Notes: a model not told the origin generated them from the letters alone. 15,669 nucleotides of DNA from Candidatus Thorarchaeota archaeon (GCA_016839445.1 JAEOUG010000062.1:1-15669), one strand, 5' to 3'; numbered from the stretch's first letter, positions 3,201 through 15,669 are shown. Made by a program: numbers and translations.

Positions 3201-4277
3201 GTGGGCAACATGCCTGAGACCGGTGAAGAGAAAGCTAAGAGAGTGACCTCAGTCCTATCGATATCACACGACAAGGACGTCGACGGTCTTGCATCAGCTG
3301 CCATCGTTTGGAGGTATGCCAATTCTAAGGGCCTCGACTACAACTCACTGCTGACTGATTACGGTGCATTTGAGCCCGCCTTCGGAAGCGCTGCGACGCG
3401 CCGTGATACGTTGATTATCATCACTGATCTCGGGATGGACGAGACTGTTCTGGATGTGGTCACTGCCGGCCTCGACCGCGCAGTCAAGCAGGGATGCAGA
3501 GTTGTCTGGCTTGATCATCACCACTGGTCAAAGAGGTCTATTGACGCAATACGGAATCTAGGAAACAACCCTGTTCTGAAAGTCAACCACGACTACTGCG
3601 CCGCAGAGATTACCCAGAAGGTTCTGATGCCGCGTGACGAGATAAGCAGAGAACTAGCGGAGATAGCGCATGACACCGACTTCAATCTCAGAGAGATCCA
3701 GGCAGCGAGCGCACTCACCGATGCAGTGTCTGTGATTCGGTTCAACGCAATTGACAGAAAGGAGGACGTCACCGAGGCACTCCGTCCAATGGTAGAACAT
3801 CTTGCCAAGGAGGGAGTCCCCGGAGTCTATGACCGAAACGCGGGTCGGTTCAAAGATGCACTGATTCAGAAGCGAGTGGAACACTACCGAAAGGAGAAGA
3901 TCAAGAAGATGAGAAAGGCCCTCTCTGGACACTGTGACCAAGAGATTCACGGTCGGCTCGTACGAGTGGTTGAGATACCAAGCGGCTTGACATCCACGGA
4001 CATGGGTACCTTCGCTGCAAAACAGGAGAACTTGCGTATTGAAGATGCGCAGATTCCGGTCGCAGATCTTCTCTTGATGCTGAGTCCCGGAGGCATGCTT
4101 GGAATACGGAGAGGTTCTGAACGTGTCCTGTGCAACTCTGTGGCCAAGCTCTTCAACGGAGGAGGACATCCCTATGCGGCAGGTGGGGAGTACGGGCTCT
4201 ACGAGGACTTCAGTGCAGTCTGCGACGACATCTTCCTTACTCTTTCGAAGGACATGTCCTGGCTAGCAGACTCCTAG
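3201..4277 (+). CDS. DHH/DHHA1-family phosphoesterase (NrnA/RecJ-like); start GTG 3201 or ATG 3210
   Basis: HDKDVDG (motif I), IITDLG (motif II), WLDHHH (DHH), D in HDTD (motif IV), and the C-terminal DHHA1 motif GGGHPYAAG. Confidence 0.9.
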   Translation: MGNMPETGEEKAKRVTSVLSISHDKDVDGLASAAIVWRYANSKGLDYNSLLTDYGAFEPAFGSAATRRDTLIIITDLGMDETVLDVVTAGLDRAVKQGCRVVWLDHHHWSKRSIDAIRNLGNNPVLKVNHDYCAAEITQKVLMPRDEISRELAEIAHDTDFNLREIQAASALTDAVSVIRFNAIDRKEDVTEALRPMVEHLAKEGVPGVYDRNAGRFKDALIQKRVEHYRKEKIKKMRKALSGHCDQEIHGRLVRVVEIPSGLTSTDMGTFAAKQENLRIEDAQIPVADLLLMLSPGGMLGIRRGSERVLCNSVAKLFNGGGHPYAAGGEYGLYEDFSAVCDDIFLTLSKDMSWLADS

Positions 4278-5236
4278 ACTGGCTCCTGTTTACTTACCAT
4301 GCTGGCGACCATCTCAATGACATCAGTGCCTGTTTCATAGAGCCTGTCAAAGGTCCTTATCGCGTCGTCAATCAGGCCTGGGTTGTCTTTTCTGTATACT
4401 AGGGCCGCCACATCCGATGACATTGCATGAGTCAGATACAACAACATCTTCTCGTCGTTCAGACTGACCATTCTGTACGTCTTGACTGGTTGGGAACCGA
4501 GTCTGAGCCCTAGATTCCCGGTTGCAAGTCCCTTGATGAAGTCCTTGCCTACAGTACTCACATGGTTCGCCATTAGCTTCAGGTCGGGAGCAGACCTCGA
4601 TTGAGGAATCAGCAGCCCAAGCACTTTGGTCCCATTGAAGGCAACCTGCATTATGGTATCTTCTGTGATTCCACTTGGTCCCAGTCCCTCCGCGATTGTG
4701 CTGAGGAATGCCAACACTCTGACAGTATCACCGGGTTTGGCGCAGTCTGCAATCTCACGAATAAGCGTCTGGCGCACGTTCTGAATTCCCTCAATCATAA
4801 TGGAGCTGTCCGATGTTCTTGTTCCACTCAGTTCGTTCGCCAGCATAATCGCCGTCTCTGAGCTATTGACACTCTTGAGACTCTCAAGATTCTGTCTGAC
4901 ATTTTCCTTCTCCTTCTTCAGACTCACCAGTTTCTCTTCGATCATTCGCTCCATGGTCTTTGCTAGTTCGCCCTCATTCAGGCTGAAGCGTTTCGGATGG
5001 TGGATCGCATCGACCTGAATTAGACCATCGCTCTCCAAGGCCTTAAGGCACCGGTAAATGTAGGCCTTTGTGAACGAGCTGTCCGCAAGCTCATTGATGT
5101 GCGACCTGAGATCACTGTAGATGGTATGAGTTCTGCCACCTTCTGTGGCCTGCACTACTGCTTGGAAGACCAAGAACTCATTCGACCCGGTGTCGAGACC
5201 TATAATCTCCAGAAGCCTCCGCTCGTTCTCCTTCAC
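4274..5236 (-). CDS. TrmB-like transcriptional regulator, paralog 3 (wHTH, coiled coil, PLD-like effector domain)
   Basis: wHTH TKAYIYRCLKALESDGLI followed by a coiled coil. The C-terminal TYRMVSLNDEKMLL...RKDNPGLIDDAIRTFD is shared with both upstream genes. GTG start overlaps the previous stop, with GGAGG upstream. Confidence 0.75.
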   Translation of the reverse strand: MKENERRLLEIIGLDTGSNEFLVFQAVVQATEGGRTHTIYSDLRSHINELADSSFTKAYIYRCLKALESDGLIQVDAIHHPKRFSLNEGELAKTMERMIEEKLVSLKKEKENVRQNLESLKSVNSSETAIMLANELSGTRTSDSSIMIEGIQNVRQTLIREIADCAKPGDTVRVLAFLSTIAEGLGPSGITEDTIMQVAFNGTKVLGLLIPQSRSAPDLKLMANHVSTVGKDFIKGLATGNLGLRLGSQPVKTYRMVSLNDEKMLLYLTHAMSSDVAALVYRKDNPGLIDDAIRTFDRLYETGTDVIEMVASMVSKQEPV

Positions 5237-6165
5237 TTGAACTTCCCTCCGTACTCATTGATGTCAACGCCCTCTTGGAAGTCCGCATCGAAGGTTTCTA
5301 TGGCGTTGTCTACGAGTTCCGGGTTCACTGATCTAGGGACCCATGTCGCAGAGAGGGGGTTCTCAGACAGGATGAGCACAATGCCTTCGTCATTCCGCCC
5401 CACGAACTGGTACGTGTTGTCTTTCCTATGCCTAACTCTGAATTCCGGATTGAATCCCGCTTCGAGGTAGGAGTTCGTTATTCTCTGGTATCCGGAGATT
5501 TTCGTCTTGGTCAGCTTCCGGTGCTCCAGAGCTCTGAACCTGACTCCCTTCTCCATTAGATGTCCAATCCTGTCAAGTCTCCTAGCTCTCACACCGTCAG
5601 GATGATCAATCCACTCAAGCGTGTATCTGACTGTGTCATTCCTCTTCAGGTTCCAGTATATTGTCTCGTCTATGAGTCGTAGGACATCCTCCAGCCCCTG
5701 TGCGAACCTTGGCTTCTCCGCTTGCCTCCCCCCAACTGCCATCGCTAGCAGAGCGCGGGCTAGGGCAGTTGCCTCAACTGAGCCTATGGCTGCAATGAAT
5801 CGATTCGTTTCCTCATCCCTAGCAAGGAGTTCTTTCACCTTCTCTTCGATACTCCTCTCTATTCCCACCTGAATCTGCTGAGGGTTGGAGCGATAGCGAT
5901 GACGTCTGCCATCCTCTTCTATCTCGATGAATCCTCTACTCTCAAGGTTGGAGAGACTCCTATAGATGAGGGGATCCTTTCCCTTTCGTCCTCCTTCCTC
6001 TATGGCCAGCTGCCCTCGTATGGTTTCGAAATCCACGAAGTCGTTTGGTTCTCTCTGGGCTTTCAACAACGCCGCGAGAACCGTCATATCCTTACTGCTT
6101 GCATCCAGACCTATGGCCTGGATGGTCTTCTCATATCTTGCACGCCTCAATGCCCTTCTCCCCAT
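5233..6165 (-). CDS. TrmB-like transcriptional regulator, paralog 2
   Basis: wHTH PLIYRSLSNLESRGFI and wing GRRHRY. C-terminal TYQFVGRNDEGIVLILSENPLSATW.PRSVNPELVDNAIETFD. Confidence 0.75.
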   Translation of the reverse strand: MGRRALRRARYEKTIQAIGLDASSKDMTVLAALLKAQREPNDFVDFETIRGQLAIEEGGRKGKDPLIYRSLSNLESRGFIEIEEDGRRHRYRSNPQQIQVGIERSIEEKVKELLARDEETNRFIAAIGSVEATALARALLAMAVGGRQAEKPRFAQGLEDVLRLIDETIYWNLKRNDTVRYTLEWIDHPDGVRARRLDRIGHLMEKGVRFRALEHRKLTKTKISGYQRITNSYLEAGFNPEFRVRHRKDNTYQFVGRNDEGIVLILSENPLSATWVPRSVNPELVDNAIETFDADFQEGVDINEYGGKFK

Positions 6166-6184
6166 CTTCCTTCATTCTGCCCAC

Positions 6185-7207
6185 TCACTCTCTGTCAAAG
6201 AGCCTGCTAATAGGTCCTCCGGGTTCACTTCCCAGTGCTGGCAGGTCCTCGGGTGTCAGTTCTAGGAATGATCTTGCTGAGTCCCATGACTTGTCAAATG
6301 ACGCGACTGCATTATCAATCAGGTCCGGATTGAAATCCCGAGTAATCCACGTAGCAGTAACAGGATCTTCTGCGATAATGAGAACCATGTTTTCGCGATT
6401 GAAGCTTACCTGATTGTAGGTCTTCTCTCCTGAGTAGAGCCTAACATCGAACCGCACACCCTCTTGCTTCAGCTTCACAATGCTCTGAAACAAGCCCTTC
6501 AGGGCATCAATGTTGAGGCGCGTGTCCATTGTATCCTCCATGCCGAACACATCGGTACTTACGAGATACCGGACATCAGCCCCTCTCTGCGCCGCTCTGA
6601 CGAATCTAATGGTTCTATCCTTGGTGAGTTCGTCAATGAATGGCCCCACCCACAGCACGGTTGCCCTGATCATGTCTCCCTCTTCAGCCACATCCAGCAT
6701 GTTGTAACGGAGCACGCGATGCAGTTCTTCCTTCCCTCGAATCACTCTTGAGCTAATCCTCTGTTCCTTACCCTGAACTTCCTCCGCAAGCTCCTGAGCC
6801 ATCTGGCCGCAGTCTATTCCTCCTATCATCTCCGCCGCTCTTCTCTGAGCCTCCCGCTCTTGCTCGATCTCTTTCATCTTCTGAGCCTTTGCTCTCTCGA
6901 ACCCCGCCATCAGGGTGTTGACATCTGCAATGTAGCGCTTCCTTCGACCATCAGGGTTCTCAAGCCGCACTAGCTGTGACTCGACCAGGTTCTTGAGCAC
7001 TCGATGAACCCACGCCTTCGTGATCTTGGTAGTTGGGTCTTCCTTCACGACCTGCTCGTAGATTTCGCCAAACTCTAACGCAATAGGCGGGTCCTTCTGA
7101 AGCCTCAGGATTGATTTGAGAACACTAAACAGGCGTGACTGCTGTCGCCCTGCTGTAGTCAAGCCGAATATCTCCAGTGCGGTCTTGAGGTCAATCTTCT
7201 TGCTCAA
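6185..7207 (-). CDS. TrmB-like transcriptional regulator, paralog 1
   Basis: wHTH TKAWVHRVLKNLVESQLV and wing GRRKRY, a coiled coil, then A..RGADVRYL and TYNQVSFNRENMVLIIAEDPVTATWITRDFNPDLIDNAVASFD. TTG start with a GGAGG SD-like motif upstream. Confidence 0.78.
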   Translation of the reverse strand: MSKKIDLKTALEIFGLTTAGRQQSRLFSVLKSILRLQKDPPIALEFGEIYEQVVKEDPTTKITKAWVHRVLKNLVESQLVRLENPDGRRKRYIADVNTLMAGFERAKAQKMKEIEQEREAQRRAAEMIGGIDCGQMAQELAEEVQGKEQRISSRVIRGKEELHRVLRYNMLDVAEEGDMIRATVLWVGPFIDELTKDRTIRFVRAAQRGADVRYLVSTDVFGMEDTMDTRLNIDALKGLFQSIVKLKQEGVRFDVRLYSGEKTYNQVSFNRENMVLIIAEDPVTATWITRDFNPDLIDNAVASFDKSWDSARSFLELTPEDLPALGSEPGGPISRLFDRE

Positions 7208-8817: not shown

Positions 8818-9681
8818 ATGAGAGCAAGAACTATTGGCTACTCCGCATATATGATGCTTTCAATTATGCTGAGTCTGACCATTGCCGCGATTCCAGCAAT
8901 CCTTCTCTTTGGCTTCGTCATCGAGAACTTCGACAACTTCCTCAATGGGCTCCCCTTCCTCGGTGACTTCAGTCTCGCGGCGACCACGTTCTTGTCTCAG
9001 TGGTTCCCTACCTGGCTGCTTCAGTACTTCTGGGTCATTGTGCTGTTTGTGCCTCTCGGTCTCACATGCTATGCGGTGTTCCTCGGCTTCCTCTTGGGCA
9101 TGTTCAAGCTCTCGCGAAGAGGTATCCCATTCCTCGAAGATGGCTACTACGATCAAGAAACGGAGGCTTGGCTGCTGTACGAGTACTACGAGGTCTACTA
9201 CAACCTCTTCCCGTACTTCGCTGGCTTCTTCTCAATCTTCCTAGACACGAAACCTCGGCATCAGGCCTTTGGAGCCAAGATCGGCAGGAACACCATTGTT
9301 GGAAACGGTCGGCTGTTCAATCCGGAGCGTACCATTATCGGTGACAACTGCTTCTTCGGATATGACGCTATCCTGAGTGGCCATGTCTATGAGGGCGACC
9401 GGCTGTATTTGAAGACGGTCAAGCTTGGGAACAATGTGACAATCGGGGCCAACGCGGTCGTTCTTCCGGGTGTCGATATAGGAGACAACGTTCTGATTGG
9501 TGCCAATACAGTAGTGCCGAAGGACAAGGTAATCCCGGCGAACACAATCTGGGTCCACGGAAAGGCAGTACCAAGAAGAGTGGCCTCGCGTGAAGAGGAG
9601 CTGCATCAGCCCATCGGAGGTCCACAGTCCATGAATGAGAAGGACGAAGCGGACACTCCGAGCAATGGCGAAAGAATTTGA
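8818..9681 (+). CDS. Membrane-anchored hexapeptide-repeat (left-handed beta-helix) acyltransferase
   Basis: N-terminal hydrophobic segments (at least two probable TM helices), then FGAKIGRNTIVG, IIGDNCFFG, SGHVYEG and VKLGNNVTIGANAVVLPGVDIGDNVLIGANTVV. GAGGA lies upstream of the ATG. Confidence 0.85.
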   Translation: MRARTIGYSAYMMLSIMLSLTIAAIPAILLFGFVIENFDNFLNGLPFLGDFSLAATTFLSQWFPTWLLQYFWVIVLFVPLGLTCYAVFLGFLLGMFKLSRRGIPFLEDGYYDQETEAWLLYEYYEVYYNLFPYFAGFFSIFLDTKPRHQAFGAKIGRNTIVGNGRLFNPERTIIGDNCFFGYDAILSGHVYEGDRLYLKTVKLGNNVTIGANAVVLPGVDIGDNVLIGANTVVPKDKVIPANTIWVHGKAVPRRVASREEELHQPIGGPQSMNEKDEADTPSNGERI

Positions 9682-9717
9682 GTGGTGAGACCCCTCAGCT
9701 CTGAGTGAGGACTTCAC

Positions 9718-10113
9718 TTGCGTCTGCTGATGTTCCATGTAGAGAGCTTCTGGTTTCGCTTAGATGAGCTCGACGATGACTCCGGAAGCAGGCTGTCTGA
9801 TTCCATTCTTGTATGGATTCACTCCGAGTCGGAGGATGAGAAGAATGAATCAAACATCCTGAGAAAGATGGTGAAGAACATAAGGTGGCTAGCGAACAAG
9901 GTGGGCTGCACATCCATCATTCTGCACCCCTTCGCACATCTTGATGATGACAAGGCCGATCCCGAGTTCGCTTCTGGTCTAATCACTGAGACCGCCAAGC
10001 GGCTTATAGATAGAGAATACGCGGTGACGGTCGTTCCCTTTGGGCACTTCACCGAGTTCGAACTCCACGCAAAGGGTCCATCCTTGGGCAAGGTGTTCAA
10101 ACACATAACCTAG
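9718..10113 (+). CDS. Stand-alone archaeal-type threonyl-tRNA synthetase editing domain protein (Ser-tRNA(Thr) hydrolase-like, DTD-like fold)
   Basis: MRLLMFH, IILHPFAHL (cf. VYPYAHL), PFG.F.EF and AKGPSL (cf. CKGHPL). 131 aa, TTG start with GAGG upstream. Confidence 0.85.
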   Translation: MRLLMFHVESFWFRLDELDDDSGSRLSDSILVWIHSESEDEKNESNILRKMVKNIRWLANKVGCTSIILHPFAHLDDDKADPEFASGLITETAKRLIDREYAVTVVPFGHFTEFELHAKGPSLGKVFKHIT

Positions 10114-10163
10114 GGGCGCTCTTCAGATGGGTTCATAACGCTGGCCATAGATGAGGTTCTGAG

Positions 10164-11600
10164 ATGGCGACGTCCAAGCCCAAGTACACACCACGAGGCT
10201 ATCAGACATTCATCCTTGAGCGGATTCGCCAGTTACGTGACTCTCCGATTCTTGTAGAGCTGGATTGCGGATTGGGCAAGAGATTCATCACGCATCAGCT
10301 GGTCGCAGAGATGCTGCCTGAACTACGGTTCATCATTGTTGTCCACTCCTCTTCTTCATTGGCCGAGACTGTTGACTATCTACGCTCCGAGTATGGTGGT
10401 CTTGAAGATGACTTGGGCGAGATTTCTTCTCGTGTGAGGTCCGGGCTGCGGAGGCTCGTAATGCGTGAGTCCCGAGTCGTGGTAGCAACCCCTCAGGTTC
10501 TGGCTGGGCTACTGAAGAAGGAACCCGAGTTGATAGAAGGTTTTGATGTAATCCTGATCAATGAGGTGGACACCCTGATCCGTCGTTCAGGTGGCCGAAC
10601 CGCTCTTGTCTTCCCCTGGCCATCCCTCCTCACGTATCTGGAGGAGAAGTGGATTATCGGCATGAGCGGCACACTGCGAGATGACCATGCAGTGTTTGGC
10701 AAGGAGCAGGTAGAGATTCGCGATGAGCTCTCCACCTTGAGGGAGCATATTCCTGGAGCAGAGCTGATCACTATGGAGGACCTGTATGGCACTGACGTAG
10801 AGGACCACTTGGAGCCCACGTTTCTCTCCATGAGAAGGGTCATTGACACGCGAATCCGCTCTATTTCGAGAGTTCTTGATGAATTGATACGCAGCACAAG
10901 AACAGAGATCATGAACGAGCTTGCCGAGGATGACAACCTCGATTTGGTTGCGGGTGACTCGCGAAGAGTACACCTCCTGTTGGAGCGGCTCCCGGTTCGA
11001 GAGGAACTCAAGTCCCAGTACTCGGGCCTCCTTATGCTTCGCAAGTATGTCTATGCAATGCCCCCGAAGCAGTTCATCCGCATGTTCTACGCCGACTATC
11101 TGAAGCACTACTTCAATGTGAAGGAACTCAGGAAGGTCCTACCAGAGGTGTCCTCAAAGGTCACGAAGGTCCTTGAGATCTGCATGGACTACAACAAGGT
11201 GCTAGTTCTCACGTCCTATCTCGAGATGGTTGCCCAAGTCGAGAATGTTCTTCAGAAGGCAGGAGTCGCTGTTTTGAAGATAACCGGGGAGACGCGAGAC
11301 AAGGGGGCAGTGCTGCGCGACTTCAAAGGCGGAGACGAGCGGATGGTGCTTGTGATGTCTCCCGTCGGAGAACGAGACCTCGATATCCCTCAGGCCGAGG
11401 TCATGATTGTCTGTGACACCATCAACACGACGAAGACAATGTATCAGAAGGTCAAGCGAACCCGGGGCGGACTTGTGGCACTACTTGCATACTCCGGCAC
11501 GTCAGAAGAGGGGAAGGTGATGAGGCTCATTCATCGAATCCTCGATCGGTACCCTTGGTCGACCGTGCTCCTAGACTCGGACTCTCAGGAGCTGGCTTGA
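10164..11600 (+). CDS. SF2 (Hef/ERCC4-like) helicase-domain protein with degenerate motifs
   Basis: Q motif PRGYQ, motif I LDCGLGKR, Ib VATPQ, II INEVD, III SGT, V SPVGERDLDIP and VI YQKVKRTR. No C-terminal nuclease domain. Confidence 0.8.
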   Translation: MATSKPKYTPRGYQTFILERIRQLRDSPILVELDCGLGKRFITHQLVAEMLPELRFIIVVHSSSSLAETVDYLRSEYGGLEDDLGEISSRVRSGLRRLVMRESRVVVATPQVLAGLLKKEPELIEGFDVILINEVDTLIRRSGGRTALVFPWPSLLTYLEEKWIIGMSGTLRDDHAVFGKEQVEIRDELSTLREHIPGAELITMEDLYGTDVEDHLEPTFLSMRRVIDTRIRSISRVLDELIRSTRTEIMNELAEDDNLDLVAGDSRRVHLLLERLPVREELKSQYSGLLMLRKYVYAMPPKQFIRMFYADYLKHYFNVKELRKVLPEVSSKVTKVLEICMDYNKVLVLTSYLEMVAQVENVLQKAGVAVLKITGETRDKGAVLRDFKGGDERMVLVMSPVGERDLDIPQAEVMIVCDTINTTKTMYQKVKRTRGGLVALLAYSGTSEEGKVMRLIHRILDRYPWSTVLLDSDSQELA

Positions 11601-11632: not shown

Positions 11633-12076
11633 ATGAGCGATGATGTAGACTTGACCGACTTCAAGCGACTTGGCCTCGGTACAGACCTGGTGGAGATAGA
11701 ACGTTTCAGAAGCCTTGCTCCTGATGCGCCGTTCTACCAGAGAGTCTTCACTGAGTCAGAACGGCAGTACTGCATGGGGTTCCCAGATTCCGCCATTCAC
11801 TACGCTTCAACGTTTGCAGCCAAGGAGGCTGTACTCAAGTCACTCCCATCCACCGAACCCATCAGTCTGCGAAGCATCGAGATACTGAGAGACCAGCATG
11901 GGTCTCCCAAGGTGCGTCTGGCCTTCGATCATCGCTTTCGTTCTTTGGTGAGTATCACTCACACTGGCCACCATGCAGCAGCCGTCGCCATATCGCATCC
12001 TATCTCTGAATCTTCTGACACAGACCAGATGCGCAAACTACTAAACGGAGCGTTGTCCGAAATCCTTCCTGAGTGA
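11633..12076 (+). CDS. acpS: Holo-[acyl-carrier-protein] synthase (AcpS-type 4'-phosphopantetheinyl transferase)
   Basis: GLGTDLVEIERF, FTESE, FAAKEAVLKS, G.P and VSITH motifs. Start moved from 11555 to ATG 11633 to avoid the helicase overlap; TTG 11651 is also possible. TTATAA lies at 11614-11619. Confidence 0.9.
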   Translation: MSDDVDLTDFKRLGLGTDLVEIERFRSLAPDAPFYQRVFTESERQYCMGFPDSAIHYASTFAAKEAVLKSLPSTEPISLRSIEILRDQHGSPKVRLAFDHRFRSLVSITHTGHHAAAVAISHPISESSDTDQMRKLLNGALSEILPE

Positions 12077-12082
12077 GCCCCC

Positions 12083-13909
12083 ATGAGTCAACCGGGTGAA
12101 CAGTTAGAGCAGGTACTCAGCGGCGCCAGAGCGGATCCTAGCTATCTTAGTCTCTGGAGCGCCTACAAGAAGATCCAGTCACTTGGGCTCAAGTCACCGC
12201 GCGGAGAGGCGCTAAGGATTGCAGTCATCGGTTCCTCAACCCTCGAACCGCTTGCAGCATGCTTGGATGTCAAATGCCGGCTGGAAGGCCTAGCGGTAGA
12301 AACATTCGTAGGAGGCTTCAACACCTACAGACAGGAATCACTCGACACCAAGTCTGCGCTCTATTCTCACAAGCCCGACCTCGTCCTCCTCTCGGTCGAC
12401 GCTTGGTCTGTTCTGGACAAGCAGTTCATCGCAACCTTCGTCCGGATGACCCCAGAGGAGAAGGAGGCTGCTGTTCAACAGCTCGTGAACGATGTAGCGA
12501 CCATTGCTGAAGTCCTAGCCAATAACTCAACTGCCCTTGTCCTCGTAAACAACTTCATTGTACCGTTCTTCAGTCCCCTGGGCATCGTCGATAACAAGCA
12601 GGAGACTGGCCTGCGTCGCTTCTTCTCGGAAGCCAACTCTAGACTGATCAAGGGATTTACGGATAGCAACAGGGTGTTTGTTGTTGACTTGGAGGCCGTT
12701 GCTGGTGACTTCGGTAAATCGAGGACAGTGAACTGGAATACTTGGTATCGCGGCTCCGTGCCCTTTGGAGAGGAGTTCACCGTACGGGTTGCTGACGAGT
12801 ATCTTCGATATGTTCGCGCGCTGAAGGGGAAGTCAAAGAAGTGCATTGTCCTAGACCTTGACAACACCCTATGGGGTGGTATCATCGGTGAGGACGGTCT
12901 CGAAGGCATCAAGCTAGGGAACGCCTCGCCTGGAATTGAGTATGTTGACTTTCAACGCTATCTCCTGAGTCTATACAACCGTGGAGTCATCCTCGCTGTC
13001 TGCAGCAAGAACAACTACGACGACGCTATCAAGGTGTTCCGAGAGCACCCCTTCCAGGTGCTCAGAGAGGAACACTTCGCGGCTATGCGGATCAACTGGC
13101 AGAACAAAGTGGCGAATATTGCTGAGCTAGCTAAGGAGATTAACATCGGCACAGATAGTCTCGTCTTCATTGATGACAATCCCGTTGAGAGAGCGCAGGT
13201 TGCTCAGGCCTTTCCCGAAGTGCTTGTTCTAGACACACCAAAGAACCCACGGCTATATCGAGAAGCTCTGGAGGCGCTCAGCGTGTTTGATGTTCTTTCT
13301 CTCACAAAGGAAGATATGGCCCGGGGAGAGATGTACGCTGGCAAGAGGAAACGCGCTCAGTTGGAACAGAGTGCAACCTCAATTGAGGACTTCCTCAAGA
13401 CTCTTGATTTGAGGATTCAGGTCCGAGAGGTGAGCGACTTCGACACACCCCGTGTTGTCCAACTCATCGGCAAGACGAATCAGTTCAATCTCACAACGAG
13501 AAGATACACCGAGGCAGAGGTGGAGCATTTCCGCGAAAGCCCGGGCTCTGCCGTGTATAGCATGGCTGTTGCTGACAAGTTCGGCGATGAGGGAGTCGTC
13601 GGAGTTGCCATTGTGAAGAAGGAAAGTGAGGCTTGGCTCATTGACTCATTCCTGATGAGCTGCAGAGTCATAGGTCGCTCCGCAGAAACAGCACTTCTGG
13701 CGAAGATCGTTTCGGATGCTAGGCGGGAGAATGCCAAGCGCATCATCGGCGAGTACATCCCAACCAAGAAGAACCCCCCCGCTGAGGACCTCTATCAACG
13801 TCATGACTTCGCGGAGGCTTCTGGTGAGGGTAATGTCAAGTTATGGGAGCTCGACCTGCAAAAGAAGACGGTTGAAGTTCCTGAATGGATCGATCTGACA
13901 GAGGAATGA
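12083..13909 (+). CDS. fkbH: FkbH-family HAD-IIIC glyceryl transferase/phosphatase (long form with N-terminal extension)
   Basis: KCIVLDLDNTLWGG, CSKN, INWQNK, FIDDNPVER, KTNQFNLT, DKFGDEG and FLMSCRV (acyl-carrier Cys). Confidence 0.95.
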   Translation: MSQPGEQLEQVLSGARADPSYLSLWSAYKKIQSLGLKSPRGEALRIAVIGSSTLEPLAACLDVKCRLEGLAVETFVGGFNTYRQESLDTKSALYSHKPDLVLLSVDAWSVLDKQFIATFVRMTPEEKEAAVQQLVNDVATIAEVLANNSTALVLVNNFIVPFFSPLGIVDNKQETGLRRFFSEANSRLIKGFTDSNRVFVVDLEAVAGDFGKSRTVNWNTWYRGSVPFGEEFTVRVADEYLRYVRALKGKSKKCIVLDLDNTLWGGIIGEDGLEGIKLGNASPGIEYVDFQRYLLSLYNRGVILAVCSKNNYDDAIKVFREHPFQVLREEHFAAMRINWQNKVANIAELAKEINIGTDSLVFIDDNPVERAQVAQAFPEVLVLDTPKNPRLYREALEALSVFDVLSLTKEDMARGEMYAGKRKRAQLEQSATSIEDFLKTLDLRIQVREVSDFDTPRVVQLIGKTNQFNLTTRRYTEAEVEHFRESPGSAVYSMAVADKFGDEGVVGVAIVKKESEAWLIDSFLMSCRVIGRSAETALLAKIVSDARRENAKRIIGEYIPTKKNPPAEDLYQRHDFAEASGEGNVKLWELDLQKKTVEVPEWIDLTEE

Positions 13910-13913
13910 ACAC

Positions 13914-14153
13914 ATGAATGACATGGACGACAAGTTGCTGGATATTCTCTCCAAGGTTCTTCTTGTGGACAAGGAGGATATCACAGACGACATCAGACGA
14001 AAAGACCACGAGGCGTGGGATTCGATGGCTCATCTGATAATCATCAGTGAAATCGAGAATGCATTTGGCGTCTTCTTTGAGGATGAGGAAGTCGTTGATG
14101 TCTGGACTGTCGGTGACCTGAAGAGGGTTCTAGCAGAGAAGCACAGCGACTAG
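13914..14153 (+). CDS. Acyl carrier protein
   Basis: 79 aa and very acidic. WDSMAHL contains the phosphopantetheine Ser37 (14022-14024), followed by IENAFGV.F and TVGDL. Starts 4 nt after the fkbH stop. Confidence 0.92.
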   Translation: MNDMDDKLLDILSKVLLVDKEDITDDIRRKDHEAWDSMAHLIIISEIENAFGVFFEDEEVVDVWTVGDLKRVLAEKHSD

Positions 14154-14596
14154 ACATTCTTTGGTTCCAGCTTCTGAAGTACGCGTGCAGGGTTTCCGGC
14201 CACTAAGGTCAGGGGTGGCACGTCTTTACTGACAACAGAACCCGCTGCCACAATCGCTCCCTCTCCTATGGTGACTCCCGGCAGGATGATTGCTCCTGCG
14301 GCTAGCCAGGCTCCCTTACCAATCACCACTTTCTTTGGTCCCTCGTGGAATATCTGCCGCTTCTGGTGGTAGGGGCTGGCCCCTGAGTGTGCCATGATCT
14401 TGACACCCGGCCCTATGCTCGCCCAATCGTGTATCTCGATGAATTCTGGATACTCTCCGTCAATCAGCACTTGGAATCCCATGTAGACGCCCTTTCCTAT
14501 CTTGACTCCGCATCGTCTGTACACGCTAGCCCTAAACTGGTATCCGGGTGCAGACCAAGCCAGAACGCGCAAGAATCTGCCAAGCATCTTTCCCAT
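14150..14596 (-). CDS. Hexapeptide-repeat acyltransferase (maltose O-acetyltransferase-like)
   Basis: GVKIGKGVYMG, IMAH, VVIGKGAWLAAGAIILPGVTIGEGAIVAAGSVVSKDVP and AGNPAR. AAGGAGG SD-like motif upstream. Confidence 0.9.
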   Translation of the reverse strand: MGKMLGRFLRVLAWSAPGYQFRASVYRRCGVKIGKGVYMGFQVLIDGEYPEFIEIHDWASIGPGVKIMAHSGASPYHQKRQIFHEGPKKVVIGKGAWLAAGAIILPGVTIGEGAIVAAGSVVSKDVPPLTLVAGNPARVLQKLEPKNV

Positions 14597-14618
14597 TCAC
14601 TATGTCCTCCTTGAGTTA

Positions 14619-15527
14619 CTATCCACGGCGCCATATCATTCTTCTCAGGTAGTCAGAGAATACCCAATTGTCGATGTCACCAGTCAGCAGGAGACAGAAT
14701 CCGTGGTCTGACTTCCAGCGCTTGTGTTTGCTCCAGTAGGTCACAGCCTCTCTGGGAGTGGGTATCCATCCGCCCATCTCCTGAGCATACTCTGCAAGCT
14801 CCCCAAGGCATGGCGCATACTCCTTCTGTCCCATCCTTATAGGGTGCAAGTCAAACATCACCACGCCTCCCGAGCTTGCGGTCTTCTTGACCTGTGTCTT
14901 CAGCGCGGCAGTCACTTCTTTTCGCCCCCAGCCTCTGCCATCGATCATTAGGTCGTCACTGAGTATGTTGAGCGGGATGAAGGTGGTGTCAAGACTACCA
15001 CTCTCCGACTCGACCCTGAAGAAGTGAGTCTTCTCTCGGTGTTCTTCCTGGTACCCGAAACCACCATCCCATAGGAGGCCGTTCTTGTCAATAATGCGGG
15101 GCATATCCTCAGTGTAGCGGTCGTAGGGTGCCCGAAAGCCGGATATGTCTATTCCAAGTTTCCGGTAGGTCTGGAGGCTGAGTGCAAGATCCCTCTCGCG
15201 TCCGGCTTCGCTCAGCATGGGGTATCTTACGTGGTTGTACCCGTGGCTGGCCACTTCGTGCCCTTCTCTTTCGATAGATCGAGCCAACTCAGGTTTCATC
15301 CGAGCGACGCTTGCCACTGTCGGAAACGCGAATTTGGCGTCCGAGGGTTCAAGTGCTGCAAAGACGTTCTCCAGGATTTCGTCAAATGATGTCCTGTGAA
15401 GTCTCCACATCCTGTACATCTGCCTCGGCGCTCTCGTCCCCCACCGCCGCTGTAGTTGACTGATGTACCTTAGGCCTGACATGAACCACCCACTCGGTTG
15501 AACCCGAATCTCGCCCATGGAGGTCAT
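14619..15527 (-). CDS. Polysaccharide deacetylase (CE4/NodB) family protein, apparently circularly permuted
   Basis: GHEVASHGYNH, GFRAPY and FDLHP. The motif-1-like LLLTGDID is at the C-terminus. Start may be 15527 or 15518. Confidence 0.85.
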   Translation of the reverse strand: MTSMGEIRVQPSGWFMSGLRYISQLQRRWGTRAPRQMYRMWRLHRTSFDEILENVFAALEPSDAKFAFPTVASVARMKPELARSIEREGHEVASHGYNHVRYPMLSEAGRERDLALSLQTYRKLGIDISGFRAPYDRYTEDMPRIIDKNGLLWDGGFGYQEEHREKTHFFRVESESGSLDTTFIPLNILSDDLMIDGRGWGRKEVTAALKTQVKKTASSGGVVMFDLHPIRMGQKEYAPCLGELAEYAQEMGGWIPTPREAVTYWSKHKRWKSDHGFCLLLTGDIDNWVFSDYLRRMIWRRG

Positions 15528-15589
15528 AAGAGTTGCGCCTGTTCAAAGACAAGACTTATGCCCGATTCGGGCATGACGCAGCTGGAACT

Positions 15590-15669
15590 ATGATGAAGCT
15601 GAGCCACGTTGGTATCATCGTGAAGGACATTGAGAAGGGCATCAAGAACCATGAGGCCCTCTTTGGCTA
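15590..15669 (+). CDS. N-terminus of a VOC/glyoxalase family protein (methylmalonyl-CoA epimerase-like), 3' truncated by the window
   Basis: Not in the ORF track. Translates MMKLSHVGIIVKDIEKGIKNHEALFG, matching the VOC N-terminal pattern H(I/V)GI.V.D.E......LG. Confidence 0.8.
   Translation, partial: MMKLSHVGIIVKDIEKGIKNHEALFG

What the first reader, a model, noticed from the sequence alone, without database searches (positions are those of the whole stretch)
11633..15669. Putative deacetylate-then-glyceroylate glycan modification system
Seen: the ACP stop overlaps the stop of a convergent two-gene unit (CE4 deacetylase then LbH acyltransferase, 22-nt gap), and a VOC gene starts divergently just beyond. 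Known: CE4 enzymes expose amines or hydroxyls on sugars, LbH enzymes acylate sugars from thioester donors, and glyceroyl substituents occur on bacterial polysaccharides such as gellan. VOC enzymes include acyl-thioester epimerases. Inference: glyceryl-ACP, perhaps epimerised D to L by the VOC protein, is the donor for acylating a surface glycan, nucleotide sugar or glycolipid. This would be an undescribed archaeal envelope modification. The cluster probably continues to the right.
Basis: inference. Interest (0 to 1): 0.72.

Follow-up and report, generated by a model that had tools for sequence, protein, structure and literature searches.

The report
Asgard carrier-protein acyl-swap gene cassette
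A Thorarchaeota (Asgard archaeon) contig carries a compact gene cassette, holding the genome's only detected acyl carrier protein, that probably loads a three-carbon glyceryl group from glycolysis and puts it on a deacetylated acceptor, most likely an amino sugar; the chemistry is untested.

Summary
AcpS-type PPTase, FkbH-like loader and ACP (+ strand) meet a convergent CE4 then LbH pair with a CTAG stop overlap and a 22-nt gap. A VOC gene starts 62 nt beyond CE4.

The genes form one unit. Three same-genus genomes have an empty site (helicase directly beside a 300-aa ORF). A fourth has an internal deletion scar. The five core genes (CE4, PPTase, FkbH, ACP, LbH) are adjacent in 19 of 19 loci from three Asgard families, in different orders.

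- The cluster does not continue to the right; no glycosyltransferase, MBOAT or flippase follows VOC in relatives.
- VOC is accessory: 7 of 8 loci in this genus, 0 of 10 in sister genera, 4 of 6 and 3 of 3 in two other families.

New here: the CE4 is circularly permuted, with its Asp motif at the C-terminus, and looks catalytically complete.

Best reading (about 0.45): glyceryl-ACP is the donor, CE4 frees an amine, and LbH re-acylates it. The acceptor is unknown.

This scan reported the same five-gene cassette at least nine times in other Thorarchaeota genomes. I reached the reading before seeing those notes. No searched paper links FkbH to glycans.

The parts
11633..12076 (+). AcpS-type 4'-phosphopantetheinyl transferase (147 aa from ATG 11633; the longest ORF starts at TTG 11555)
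   Evidence: Pfam ACPS 56.2 bits (cut-off 25) and TIGR00556 56.1 bits. It is the only ACPS match in the own genome at E<=0.01. Relatives align from about residue 14-27 of the long ORF.
12083..13909 (+). FkbH-like loader, 608 aa: FkbH_N domain, HAD-IIIC phosphatase domain and a C-terminal transferase domain
   Evidence: TIGR01686 317.5 bits (cut-off 146.65) and TIGR01681 76.2 bits. PDB 3SLR (BF1531) matches at E 1.1e-47 over residues 43-408. Invariant in 30 diverse homologues: D258, D260, S308, K342, D364, D365, T465-F468, S526-C527-R528.
13914..14153 (+). Acyl carrier protein, 79 aa, attachment Ser37 in a WDSM motif
   Evidence: Pfam PP-binding 22.2 bits (cut-off 20.8). D36 and S37 are invariant in 17 of 17 Asgard orthologues. 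It is the only PP-binding match in the own genome at E<=0.01.
14150..14596 (-). Small left-handed beta-helix (hexapeptide) acyltransferase, 148 aa, 'LbH148'
   Evidence: Pfam Hexapep 54.7 bits. Best solved relatives are maltose and galactoside O-acetyltransferases at 60-71 bits. It is below every NCBIfam equivalog cut-off. H70 and W97 are invariant in 16 orthologues. It is 81-90% identical within the genus, the best-conserved gene of the cassette.
14619..15527 (-). CE4-fold deacetylase-like enzyme, 302 aa, circularly permuted (Asp motif at the C-terminus)
   Evidence: Pfam Polysacc_deac_1 45.2 bits, matching profile positions 20-121 only. The AlphaFold2 model has pLDDT 87.1 and pTM 0.84. VIA-align gives Z 23.2 to 3RXZ and 21.9 to HP0310, with model range 31-270. 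Invariant: H95, H99, R132-A-P-Y135, D226-L-H228-P, T282-G-D284-I-D286-N.
15528..15589 (.). 62-nt divergent intergenic region between CE4 and VOC
   Evidence: Read directly. Relatives share short conserved blocks here. The 17-nt palindrome at 15558-15574 is not conserved.
15590..15669 (+). 5' end (26 codons) of a VOC / Glyoxalase_4 gene, an accessory member of the cassette
   Evidence: The translation is 72-92% identical to the starts of full-length 134-aa VOC genes at the same place in 7 of 8 same-genus loci. Those full-length genes score Glyoxalase_4 77.7-80.9 bits.

Best explanation
The six genes form a self-contained cytoplasmic module with five core genes and one accessory gene.

Proposed steps:
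1. The AcpS-type PPTase converts the cassette's own ACP to the holo form (inferred from family).
2. The FkbH-like enzyme takes 1,3-bisphosphoglycerate, removes the phosphate with its HAD domain, and passes the glyceryl group through its conserved C-terminal cysteine to the ACP thiol, giving glyceryl-S-ACP. This is inferred from family membership and conserved residues; the chemistry is established for FkbH homologues in polyketide pathways.
3. The CE4 enzyme removes an acetyl group from an acceptor, most likely the N-acetyl of an amino sugar on a nucleotide- or lipid-linked glycan precursor (inferred).
4. LbH148 transfers the ACP-borne C3 hydroxyacyl group to the freed position (inferred).
5. 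Where present, the VOC protein acts on the 2-hydroxyacyl thioester, by epimerisation or isomerisation through an enediolate. This step is optional.

Shown here: the genes are one conserved, jointly gained and lost unit; the catalytic residues are intact; the cassette ends at VOC. Not shown: the acyl group, the donor used by LbH148, and the acceptor.

My odds by layer: functional unit about 0.9; glyceryl-ACP formation about 0.75; LbH transfer to a CE4-deacetylated acceptor about 0.45; the acceptor being a glycan amino sugar about 0.35.
For: Block gain and loss:
- G001 (97% complete), G013 and G012 read helicase directly beside the 300-aa ORF, with syntenic flanks. PPTase, FkbH, ACP, LbH148, CE4 and VOC are not found in these genomes.
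- G003, G008 and G042 also lack CE4, LbH148 and an FkbH orthologue.
- G015 has a deletion running from mid-PPTase to mid-CE4.

Conserved adjacency with rearrangement:
- All five core genes are adjacent in 19 of 19 loci with flank.
- Family f1 has PPT-FkbH-ACP convergent with CE4-LbH. Families f18 and f20 have CE4-PPT-FkbH-ACP co-directional, with LbH(-VOC) beside them.
- FkbH is only 45-49% identical between these families.
- The pattern also appears on named Hodarchaeota and Promethearchaeota contigs.

Intact enzymes:
- FkbH scores above the TIGR01686 cut-off and keeps its HAD motifs and SCR cysteine.
- ACP Ser37 is invariant.
- CE4 keeps the His-His and Asp motifs, RAPY and LHP in a confident CE4 fold.
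- LbH148 H70 is invariant.

Dedicated carrier system: the own genome (89.8% complete) has a single PP-binding match and a single ACPS match.

Wider family context (80 loci of FkbH homologues, 75 with an intact ORF):
- ACP is detected in 47 loci and sits directly downstream of FkbH in 46.
- Neighbours include GT4 (22 loci), LbH (20), AsnB-like (18), UDP-glucose dehydrogenase (14), GT2 (13) and a second CE4 group (11).
- LbH (20 loci) and an unnamed 376-aa family (19 loci) never co-occur, as expected for alternative off-loading transferases.
- A Nitrosopelagicus locus joins FkbH-ACP with an LbH (91 bits to LbH148) and a non-permuted CE4 of the same subtype.

Complex prediction, LbH148 trimer with ACP: weak support.
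- Score 0.55, best of 3 controls 0.00.
- The mark was reached by 116 of 157 solved complexes and 2 of 215 mismatched pairs.
- At 0.60 or under it was reached by only 18 of those 157 and by both mismatches that passed.
- The runs agree in at least 93% of contacts; partner pLDDT is at least 81.
- Solved LbH-ACP complexes (LpxA and LpxD, recalled) could give a pass from memory.

Literature passages read:
- N-glyceroyl sugars exist, and in 2017 their genetic basis was called a major challenge (PMC5378307).
Against: - LbH148's nearest solved and curated relatives are acetyl-CoA-dependent O-acetyltransferases: Maa, LacA and WcaF at 60-78 bits. The acyl-ACP-using LpxA model scores only 31 bits.
- LbH148 is a minimal 148-aa LbH without the extra domain that I recall LpxA and LpxD using to bind ACP.
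- An O-acyltransferase would not need a deacetylase to expose an amine.
- There is no glycosyltransferase, flippase or sugar-nucleotide gene in or beside the Asgard cassette in f1 and f20, so the link to glycans rests on analogy with bacterial loci and on AglB adjacency in one genus.
- The bacterial FkbH-adjacent LbH proteins are a mixed set (34-64 bits to LbH148), not orthologues.
- Relatives are not independent: most counts come from one family of Thorarchaeota.
- The complex prediction is only weak support.
- No expression data exist.
Confidence: 0.45

Rival explanations
1. LbH148 is an ordinary acetyl-CoA-dependent O-acetyltransferase and CE4 is its opposing or editing esterase. Examples would be transient O-acetylation of the glyceryl unit or of the same acceptor. 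The glyceryl group would leave the ACP by another route, such as the FkbH C-terminal domain, CE4 acting as a transacylase or thioesterase, or an enzyme encoded elsewhere.
For: The best solved and curated relatives of LbH148 are Maa, LacA, WcaF and Vat O-acetyltransferases. It is only 148 aa long. Acetylation followed by elimination on glycerate-derived units is known in tetronate pathways (Mad17/Mad18; passage in PMC7489565).
Against: LbH148 orthologues were not found in any genus genome that lacks the cassette, so it is not a general acetyltransferase. LbH and the 376-aa family are mutually exclusive beside FkbH-ACP, which suits an off-loading role. The trimer-ACP prediction gave a weak pass of 0.55 against 0.00.
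Confidence: 0.2
2. The cassette makes or modifies something other than a glycan: a polar-lipid head group, a small soluble metabolite or a protein side chain carrying a glyceryl (or derived C3) acyl group.
For: No glycosyltransferase or flippase lies in or beside the cassette in f1 and f20. All six proteins look cytoplasmic: I saw no signal peptide or membrane span by eye, and no predictor was run. The top NCBIfam hit of LbH148 is a lipid O-acetyltransferase (heptaprenylglyceryl phosphate O-acetyltransferase), though at 77.5 bits against a cut-off of 300. ArnD, which acts on a lipid-linked sugar, is among the CE4 fold matches at Z 18.4.
Against: The nearby lipid-type genes (GGR, LbH287) stay in place in cassette-free genomes. 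FkbH-ACP homologues in 80 loci sit mainly among sugar genes. In genus g43 an STT3/AglB gene lies two genes from the cassette in 6 of 6 loci.
Confidence: 0.2
3. One reading: VOC obligatorily epimerises D- to L-glyceryl-ACP before transfer, and the cluster extends to the right into glycosyltransferase, MBOAT or flippase genes.
For: VOC genes lie directly upstream of FkbH in 8 bacterial loci and within six genes of it in 14 loci. The Asgard cassette VOCs group together at 90/88 support in a 19-row tree. The H-E-H-E metal ligands are conserved. The best solved relative is a glyoxalase I (2QH0 and 3HDP, 76 and 75 bits), an enzyme that makes 2-hydroxyacyl thioesters; methylmalonyl-CoA epimerases score up to 35.5 bits.
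Against: VOC is absent from 10 of 10 loci of sister genera, from 1 of 8 loci of this genus and from 2 of 6 f18 loci. It is intact at 91% identity in G015, which deleted FkbH, ACP and LbH. To the right of VOC there is only a 300-aa ORF that is also present without the cassette.
Confidence: 0.07
4. The CE4-LbH pair and VOC are chance neighbours of the PPTase-FkbH-ACP operon, with no shared function.
For: Within the genus the whole region, including unrelated genes (helicase, GGR), is syntenic. Synteny within the genus alone therefore proves little.
Against: Adjacency survives rearrangement across three families in 19 of 19 loci. The genes are absent as a block with clean empty sites.
Confidence: 0.03

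Closest known systems
FkbH-type glyceryl-ACP loaders with stand-alone ACPs in methoxymalonyl-ACP and tetronate pathways (for example Mad14/Mad12 and Mad7/Mad8 of tetromadurin; FK520 FkbH). Passages read in PMC7489565 and PMC8949500.
   Same: An FkbH domain above the curated cut-off, HAD motifs, a conserved C-terminal Cys, and an adjacent small ACP with the attachment Ser. The predicted chemistry is 1,3-bisphosphoglycerate to glyceryl-S-ACP.
   Different: There is no PKS, NRPS, FabH-like, FkbI/FkbK dehydrogenase or FkbG methyltransferase partner. The host is archaeal. The protein has a ~250-aa N-terminal extension containing the FkbH_N domain (PF21211). The partners are a CE4 enzyme, an LbH acyltransferase and sometimes a VOC protein.
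Nod-factor tailoring: NodB (CE4 de-N-acetylase) followed by NodA N-acylation from a dedicated acyl-ACP, NodF (recalled, not from a call)
   Same: The logic is the same: a cytoplasmic CE4 enzyme removes an N-acetyl group, then an acyl group from a dedicated ACP is put on the amine.
   Different: The NodB equivalog model scores 29.3 bits against a cut-off of 240. The transferase here is an LbH protein, not a NodA homologue. The acyl group is C3 from glycolysis, not a fatty acid. No chitin-oligosaccharide synthase gene is nearby.
LpxA and LpxD, LbH acyltransferases that use acyl-ACP (recalled)
   Same: Trimeric LbH fold, with an ACP-borne acyl donor proposed.
   Different: The LpxA model scores 31.2 bits against 226. 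LbH148 is much smaller and sits nearer to Maa, LacA and WcaF O-acetyltransferases.
N-glyceroyl (Gra) sugars, for example Pse5Am7Gra on the Tannerella forsythia S-layer O-glycan (passages read in PMC5378307)
   Same: This is the product class the cassette would make: a 2,3-dihydroxypropanoyl group on a sugar amine.
   Different: No such sugar is known from Asgard archaea. That paper names no gene for the Gra group and does not mention FkbH (0 occurrences).
Circularly permuted CE4 deacetylases such as PgaB and IcaB (recalled, not from a call)
   Same: The CE4 motifs occur in a non-canonical order along the chain.
   Different: Here only the first strand with the Asp motif has moved, to the extreme C-terminus. 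The closest folds are the ~300-aa PuuE, HP0310 and 3RXZ group. The enzyme is cytoplasmic.

Membership tests
FkbH family (TIGR01686 / HAD-IIIC) | Score above the curated cut-off of the FkbH domain model | tested here: met
   TIGR01686 scores 317.5 bits against 146.65 over residues 252-577. TIGR01681 scores 76.2 against 35.75.
FkbH family (TIGR01686 / HAD-IIIC) | HAD catalytic motifs (DxDxT, Ser/Thr, Lys, DD) | tested here: met
   D258, D260, S308, K342, D364 and D365 are invariant in 30 sequences at 35-45% identity.
FkbH family (TIGR01686 / HAD-IIIC) | Conserved cysteine in the C-terminal transferase domain (its role as glyceryl-S-enzyme carrier is recalled from OzmB work, not from a call) | tested here: met
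   S526-C527-R528 are invariant in 30 of 30 sequences.
FkbH family (TIGR01686 / HAD-IIIC) | Loads glyceryl from 1,3-bisphosphoglycerate onto a cognate ACP | not testable with these tools
   Needs an enzyme assay. The adjacent ACP with Ser37 is present.
Acyl carrier protein (PF00550) and AcpS PPTase (PF01648) | Family score above cut-off and a conserved attachment serine | tested here: met
   PP-binding scores 22.2 against 20.8 and ACPS 56.2 against 25. D36-S37 are invariant in 17 of 17.
Carbohydrate esterase family 4 (Polysacc_deac_1) | CE4 fold and family score | tested here: met
   Pfam scores 45.2 against 23.1. Foldseek E 3.8e-10 to 3CL6. VIA-align Z 23.2, rmsd 3.2 over 231 residues to 3RXZ, and Z 21.9 to 3QBU.
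Carbohydrate esterase family 4 (Polysacc_deac_1) | Canonical order of motifs (Asp-Asp motif on the first strand, before the His-x-x-x-His motif) | tested here: not met
   The Pfam and TIGR03006 alignments lack the first 19-24 profile positions. All structural alignments start just after the targets' Asp motif (for example SpPgdA from 279, SlCE4 from 16) and end at model residue 265-271. An invariant T-G-D-I-D-N motif follows a confident C-terminal strand at 277-282. A non-permuted relative carries the matching G-I-D-F-E-D-W at its N-terminus. That the C-terminal Asp residues sit at the metal site is inferred; coordinates could not be read.
Carbohydrate esterase family 4 (Polysacc_deac_1) | Metal-binding and catalytic residues present (Asp, His, His; Arg; catalytic His) | tested here: met
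   H95, H99, R132, H228, D284 and D286 are invariant in 15 orthologues at 38-64% identity. Activity is not testable.
Hexapeptide (LbH) acyltransferases of the Maa/LacA/WcaF type | Hexapeptide repeats and similarity to the sugar O-acetyltransferase group | tested here: met
   Hexapep scores 54.7 bits. Maltose transacetylase 2IC7 matches at 71.1 bits over residues 30-142.
Hexapeptide (LbH) acyltransferases of the Maa/LacA/WcaF type | Membership of any named equivalog (Maa, LacA, WcaF, heptaprenylglyceryl-P O-acetyltransferase, LpxA) | tested here: not met
   Scores against cut-offs: 66.1 of 314, 59.8 of 347, 56.7 of 326.3, 77.5 of 300, 31.2 of 226.
Methylmalonyl-CoA epimerase (TIGR03081) within the VOC superfamily | Score above the equivalog cut-off | tested here: not met
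   The full-length orthologue from L022 scores 66.5 bits against 114.95. Its Glyoxalase_4 Pfam score of 77.7 against 27 is met. The best solved relative is glyoxalase I 2QH0 at 76 bits; MCE structures score up to 35.5.

The most novel reading that the evidence does not exclude
Asgard archaea use their only acyl-carrier-protein system to swap the N-acetyl group of an amino sugar in their protein-linked (AglB-dependent) glycans for an N-glyceroyl group. The same FkbH-ACP-plus-transferase logic would be the long-missing general route to glyceroyl- and lactyl-type sugar decorations across bacteria and archaea. The VOC protein would set the C2 configuration of the hydroxyacyl thioester.
Probability: 0.3. 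Interest if true: 0.75.

Novelty: new variant of a known kind. Interest (0 to 1): 0.6.

Why it matters
ACP and its synthase are described as absent from nearly all Archaea (passage read in bioRxiv 10.1101/2024.07.05.601840). Here the genome's only ACP system sits in a small cassette of sugar-tailoring-type enzymes rather than with lipid or polyketide genes. The cassette is present in some genomes of the genus and cleanly absent from others. That warns against reading Asgard ACP genes as evidence for bacterial-type fatty-acid or lipid synthesis.

If the mechanism holds, it would be the first carrier-protein-dependent glycan tailoring in Archaea. It would also give a testable gene set for N-glyceroyl sugars, whose genetic basis was called a major challenge in 2017 (PMC5378307).

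Cassette-bearing and cassette-free genomes within one genus, plus a deletion-scar genome, offer natural comparisons for glycan or lipid mass spectrometry. The permuted CE4 is a small structural novelty in its own right.

Tried and rejected
- Reading to the right in the own genome was impossible. The window is the whole contig C22. A Glyoxalase_4 search of the genome found only a paralogue on C12, not the rest of this VOC gene.
- Expression: no RNA holder was listed for 11633-15669. All four runs laid were DNA contigs.
- Lipid link: GGR and the 287-aa LbH gene upstream stay in place in cassette-free genomes, so they are not part of the unit.
- An apparent truncation of CE4 in G002 is a run of N in the record, not a deletion.
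- Partial or missing matches in G041, G043 and G011 lie at contig ends. They were not counted as losses.
- The 17-nt palindrome at 15558-15574 is not conserved in eight relatives.
- Bacterial FkbH-adjacent LbH proteins are not orthologues of LbH148, at 34-64 bits. I therefore dropped the idea of one universal FkbH-linked LbH subfamily.
- Literature searches:
  - 'FkbH' + 'acyl carrier protein' + 'polysaccharide': 2 papers, both on secondary metabolism.
  - 'FkbH' + 'glyceroyl': 2 papers, both on polyketides.
  - 'FkbH' + 'O-antigen': 0 papers.
  - 'FkbH-like': 21 papers, 19 listed, 18 of them on secondary-metabolite pathways judged by title and abstract, and none on glycans or archaea.
  - One search was badly designed (generic terms, 2,990 hits) and gave nothing.
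  - Subscription journals are not covered by these searches.
- The model's coordinates could not be read, so the distance of D284 and D286 to H95 and H99 was not measured.
- The VOC tree has only 19 rows and one non-FkbH-linked VOC. Its long branches make deeper nodes unsafe.

Full report
OBSERVATION

The window is the whole of contig C22 of a 2.9-Mb, 89.8%-complete genome. Sources name its FkbH-like protein's closest relatives as Thorarchaeota / Promethearchaeota, that is Asgard archaea.

The ORF map and family scans give, from 11.6 kb onward:
- an AcpS-type PPTase (ATG 11633 to 12076, +);
- a 608-aa FkbH-like protein (12083-13909, +);
- a 79-aa ACP (13914-14153, +);
- a 148-aa hexapeptide acyltransferase, LbH148 (14150-14596, -);
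- a 302-aa CE4 protein (14619-15527, -);
- the first 26 codons of a VOC gene (15590-15669, +).

Read directly, the ACP and LbH ORFs share the four bases CTAG at 14150-14153, with their stop codons overlapping. CE4 and LbH are 22 nt apart. VOC starts 62 nt from the CE4 start. A 2322-base contig of a public run bridges 13958-15669 and continues beyond it, though that run may be the window's own sample.

ONE UNIT, WITH DEFINED EDGES

Orthologues of the FkbH-like gene (about 70% identity) occur in 17 of 24 same-genus genomes first searched. Eight fetched loci all show PPT-FkbH-ACP facing LbH-CE4. Within the genus the whole region, including an unrelated helicase and a geranylgeranyl reductase, is syntenic, so that alone says little.

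The informative cases are the genomes without the genes.
- CE4 and LbH148 searches of 27 other genus genomes gave no match in G001, G003, G008, G012, G013 and G042. The same six have no FkbH orthologue; G042 has only a 32%-identical paralogue.
- In G001 (97% complete), G013 and G012 the fetched locus reads helicase, then 130-290 nt, then a 300-aa ORF of no family. Both flanks are syntenic, and none of the six genes is present.
- G015 keeps a scar: the N-terminal part of the PPTase abuts the N-terminal part of CE4 (with an in-frame TAG), while VOC is intact at 91% identity.
- Apparent partial losses in G011, G041 and G043 lie at contig ends, and one in G002 is a run of N. I did not count these.

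The six genes are therefore one insertion/deletion unit, bounded by the helicase and the 300-aa ORF.

DOES IT CONTINUE TO THE RIGHT?

No. In relatives, VOC is followed by the convergent 300-aa ORF, an HMG-CoA-reductase N-terminal domain gene, small unknown ORFs, an alcohol dehydrogenase, a lipoate ligase and 2-oxoacid dehydrogenase genes. There is no glycosyltransferase, MBOAT, flippase or further ACP. These genes are equally present where the cassette is missing.

CONSERVATION BEYOND THE GENUS

A search of 400 genomes of the phylum found FkbH orthologues (44-72% identity over the full length) in four anonymised families: f1 (40 of 85), f18 (11 of 22), f20 (6 of 12) and f14 (2 of 12, one an orthologue). 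It found none in, for example, f9 (0 of 135).

I fetched twenty loci; one was too short to judge. In the other 19, CE4, PPTase, FkbH, ACP and LbH148 are all adjacent, but the order differs:
- f1 has PPT-FkbH-ACP convergent with CE4-LbH.
- f18 and f20 have CE4-PPT-FkbH-ACP as one co-directional run, with LbH (and VOC) beside it on the other strand.

Contigs labelled Hodarchaeota and Promethearchaeota show the same pattern. Two of the named loci are the same contigs as two anonymous ones, judged by length. Adjacency that survives rearrangement at 45-49% FkbH identity is good evidence of a shared function for the five core genes.

VOC IS ACCESSORY

Full-length VOC lies beside the cassette in:
- 7 of 8 loci of this genus (not in G018, where the 300-aa ORF abuts CE4);
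- 0 of 10 loci from eight sister genera of f1;
- 4 of 6 f18 loci;
- 3 of 3 f20 loci.

In a 19-row tree the Asgard cassette VOCs group together (support 90/88), apart from bacterial FkbH-adjacent VOCs and from the genome's own second Glyoxalase_4 gene. This suggests an old cassette member that is often lost. The sample is small and the branches are long.

VOC is also linked to FkbH-ACP outside archaea. Among 80 loci of FkbH homologues it lies within six genes in 14 loci and directly upstream in 8, mostly Acidobacteriota. Its H-E-H-E metal ligands are conserved. Its best solved relatives are Clostridium acetobutylicum glyoxalase I entries (2QH0 and 3HDP, 76 and 75 bits), ahead of methylmalonyl-CoA epimerases (up to 35.5 bits). 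It falls below the MCE equivalog cut-off, at 66.5 against 114.95.

Glyoxalase I makes a 2-hydroxyacyl thioester through an enediolate, and glyceryl-S-ACP is such a thioester. A role on the ACP-bound acyl group (epimerisation or isomerisation) is therefore chemically sensible, but it is optional and untested.

THE ENZYMES LOOK ACTIVE

- FkbH-like protein. It scores 317.5 bits on TIGR01686 (cut-off 146.65). It matches the solved N-terminal and HAD part of Bacteroides fragilis BF1531 (3SLR, E 1.1e-47). In an alignment with 29 homologues at 35-45% identity, the HAD residues (D258, D260, S308, K342, D364, D365) and a C-terminal S526-C527-R528 are invariant. The family is very large: 15,202 cluster representatives at E<=0.001.
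- ACP. It keeps D36-S37 in 17 of 17 orthologues.
- Carrier system. The own genome has only this one PP-binding match and only this one ACPS match.
- LbH148. It is the most conserved gene of the cassette: 81-90% identical within the genus, against about 70% for FkbH, about 61% for CE4 and about 43% for PPTase. It has an invariant His70. Its nearest solved relatives are maltose and galactoside O-acetyltransferases. It reaches no curated equivalog cut-off.

A PERMUTED CE4

The Pfam and TIGR03006 alignments of the CE4 protein start after the profile's first 19-24 positions, which carry the Asp motif. Fifteen orthologues share invariant H95 and H99 (His motif), R132-A-P-Y135, D226-L-H228-P, and a C-terminal block ending in T282-G-D284-I-D286-N.

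An AlphaFold2 model (pLDDT 87.1, pTM 0.84) places a confident strand at 277-282. The fold matches the ~300-aa CE4 group: 3RXZ at Z 23.2, HP0310 at Z 21.9 and PuuE at Z 21.1. ArnD matches at Z 18.4.

All alignments cover model residues about 31/48 to 265/271. In the targets they begin just after the first strand and its Asp motif, for example at residue 279 in SpPgdA, where the D275N mutant entry marks the catalytic Asp. A Nitrosopelagicus CE4 next to another FkbH-ACP pair carries the matching motif (G-I-D-F-E-D-W) at its N-terminus.

I conclude that the first strand of the barrel, with the catalytic and metal-binding Asp residues, has moved to the C-terminus. The enzyme appears to have a full catalytic set. 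The placement of D284 and D286 at the metal site is an inference, because I could not read the coordinates.

WIDER CONTEXT OF THE FKBH-ACP PAIR

In 80 loci from many bacterial and archaeal phyla (75 with an intact FkbH ORF under my ORF caller):
- An ACP was detected in 47 loci and follows FkbH directly in 46.
- The commonest neighbours are GT4 (22 loci), LbH (20), asparagine-synthase-like amidotransferases (18), SDR (16), VOC (14), UDP-glucose dehydrogenase (14), GT2 (13), methyltransferases (12), PPTase (11), sulfotransferases (11), another CE4 group (11), sugar epimerases (11) and FemAB-like GNATs (10).

This full-length FkbH family therefore lives mainly in glycan loci. LbH (20 loci) and an unnamed 376-aa family (19 loci) never co-occur, as expected if they are alternative enzymes that take the acyl group off the ACP. 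In Thaumarchaeota, Patescibacteria and Nitrospinota the pair comes with a MaoC dehydratase and SDRs. That would turn glyceryl-ACP into a lactyl-type unit, by analogy with DH-KR-FkbH-ACP loading modules (recalled).

MECHANISM

The best-supported reading has four steps:
1. The PPTase activates the ACP.
2. FkbH loads glyceryl from 1,3-bisphosphoglycerate. Passages read in PMC7489565 and PMC8949500 establish this chemistry for homologues.
3. CE4 removes an acetyl group from an acceptor.
4. LbH148 transfers the C3 hydroxyacyl group to that acceptor.

VOC optionally reshapes the thioester. The closest logic known to me is Nod-factor tailoring (NodB, then NodA with NodF-ACP; recalled). LpxA and LpxD show that LbH enzymes can use acyl-ACP (recalled).

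A prediction of the LbH148 trimer with the ACP gave weak support only:
- score 0.55, best of three controls 0.00;
- the mark was reached by 116 of 157 solved complexes and 2 of 215 mismatched pairs;
- at 0.60 or under it was reached by only 18 of those 157 and by both mismatches that passed;
- the runs agree in at least 93% of contacts, and partner pLDDT is at least 81.
A pass from memory of solved LbH-ACP complexes cannot be excluded.

AGAINST THE MODEL

- LbH148 resembles acetyl-CoA O-acetyltransferases, and an O-acyltransferase would not need a deacetylase.
- No sugar gene sits in or next to the cassette in f1 and f20.
- The only direct glycan hint in Asgard is an STT3/AglB gene two genes from the cassette in 6 of 6 loci, all of one genus, g43.
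- The acceptor is unknown.

PRIOR WORK

Searches of the held library found no paper linking FkbH to polysaccharides, O-antigens or glyceroyl sugars. Of the 19 'FkbH-like' papers listed, 18 concern secondary-metabolite pathways by title and abstract, and none concerns glycans or archaea. Subscription journals are not covered.

N-glyceroyl sugars are known (Pse5Am7Gra). A 2017 paper called their genetic basis a major challenge, and it does not mention FkbH (PMC5378307). ACP and its synthase are described as absent from nearly all Archaea (bioRxiv 10.1101/2024.07.05.601840).

This scan had already reported the same five-gene cassette in at least nine other Thorarchaeota windows, and FkbH-ACP-LbH/VOC modules in bacterial glycan loci. 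I saw those notes after reaching the same reading, and they agree. What this window adds:
- the VOC gene and its accessory status;
- the empty-site and scar genomes;
- the mutual exclusivity of LbH and the 376-aa family;
- the permuted CE4.

VERDICT

This is a new variant of known kinds (FkbH-ACP loading; deacetylate-then-reacylate tailoring) in an unexpected host. Interest 0.6.

Noticed in passing
window 14619-15527 (-): The CE4 enzyme is circularly permuted. The strand carrying the Asp motif (T282-G-D-I-D-N) sits at the C-terminus instead of before the His motif. Among 80 FkbH loci this motif at a C-terminus occurs only in the four Asgard CE4 proteins.
   Followed up: yes
L114 (G015:C7) 4607-5745: A natural deletion scar. 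PPTase residues about 14-94 abut CE4 residues about 21-146 (with an in-frame TAG). FkbH, ACP and LbH are gone, while VOC stays intact at 91% identity.
   Followed up: partly
window 4274-7207 (-): Three tandem paralogous ORFs of 320, 310 and 340 aa have no confident family (a weak TrmB winged-helix hit in one). They are 23-29% identical to each other's orthologues and are syntenic across the family.
   Followed up: no
window 8818-9681 (+): A 287-aa hexapeptide protein has a hydrophobic N-terminal half and weak similarity to the terminal domain of Pls/PosA-type synthetases. It stays in place in cassette-free genomes, so it is not part of the cassette.
   Followed up: partly
L030 (G006:C47) 8837-10663 and L031 (G028:C38) 8835-10667: A second, 32-36% identical FkbH-like paralogue occurs in several Asgard genomes without an adjacent ACP detected. 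In L030 it sits among three FkbM-type methyltransferases and GT4 glycosyltransferases.
   Followed up: partly
L126-L130, L135 (genus g43): An STT3/AglB oligosaccharyltransferase gene lies two genes from the cassette in 6 of 6 loci of one genus. It is the only direct hint of a link to N-glycosylation.
   Followed up: partly
L038-L111 (bacterial and archaeal FkbH loci): Beside FkbH-ACP, an LbH acyltransferase (20 loci) and an unnamed 376-aa protein family without Pfam hits (19 loci) never co-occur. The 376-aa family travels with sulfotransferase, FemAB-like GNAT and UDP-glucose dehydrogenase genes, mostly in Acidobacteriota.
   Followed up: partly
L035, L036, L040, L049, L052, L057, L058, L085: In Thaumarchaeota, Patescibacteria/DPANN and Nitrospinota the FkbH-ACP pair is joined by a MaoC dehydratase. 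SDR reductases were confirmed by Pfam in one representative. Together these would convert glyceryl-ACP to a lactyl-type unit.
   Followed up: no
window 9718-10113 (+): A stand-alone archaeal ThrRS editing-domain gene (131 aa) is present here but missing from the syntenic locus in several relatives, for example L112, L113, L119 and L122.
   Followed up: no
window 15558-15574: A perfect 17-nt palindrome lies in the CE4-VOC intergenic region. It is not conserved in eight relatives, which instead share two other short blocks there.
   Followed up: yes
L115 (G011:C240) 164-1829: About 1.6 kb lies between the ACP end and LbH148 in one relative, where other genomes have an overlap or a few bases. The content was not examined.
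   Followed up: no
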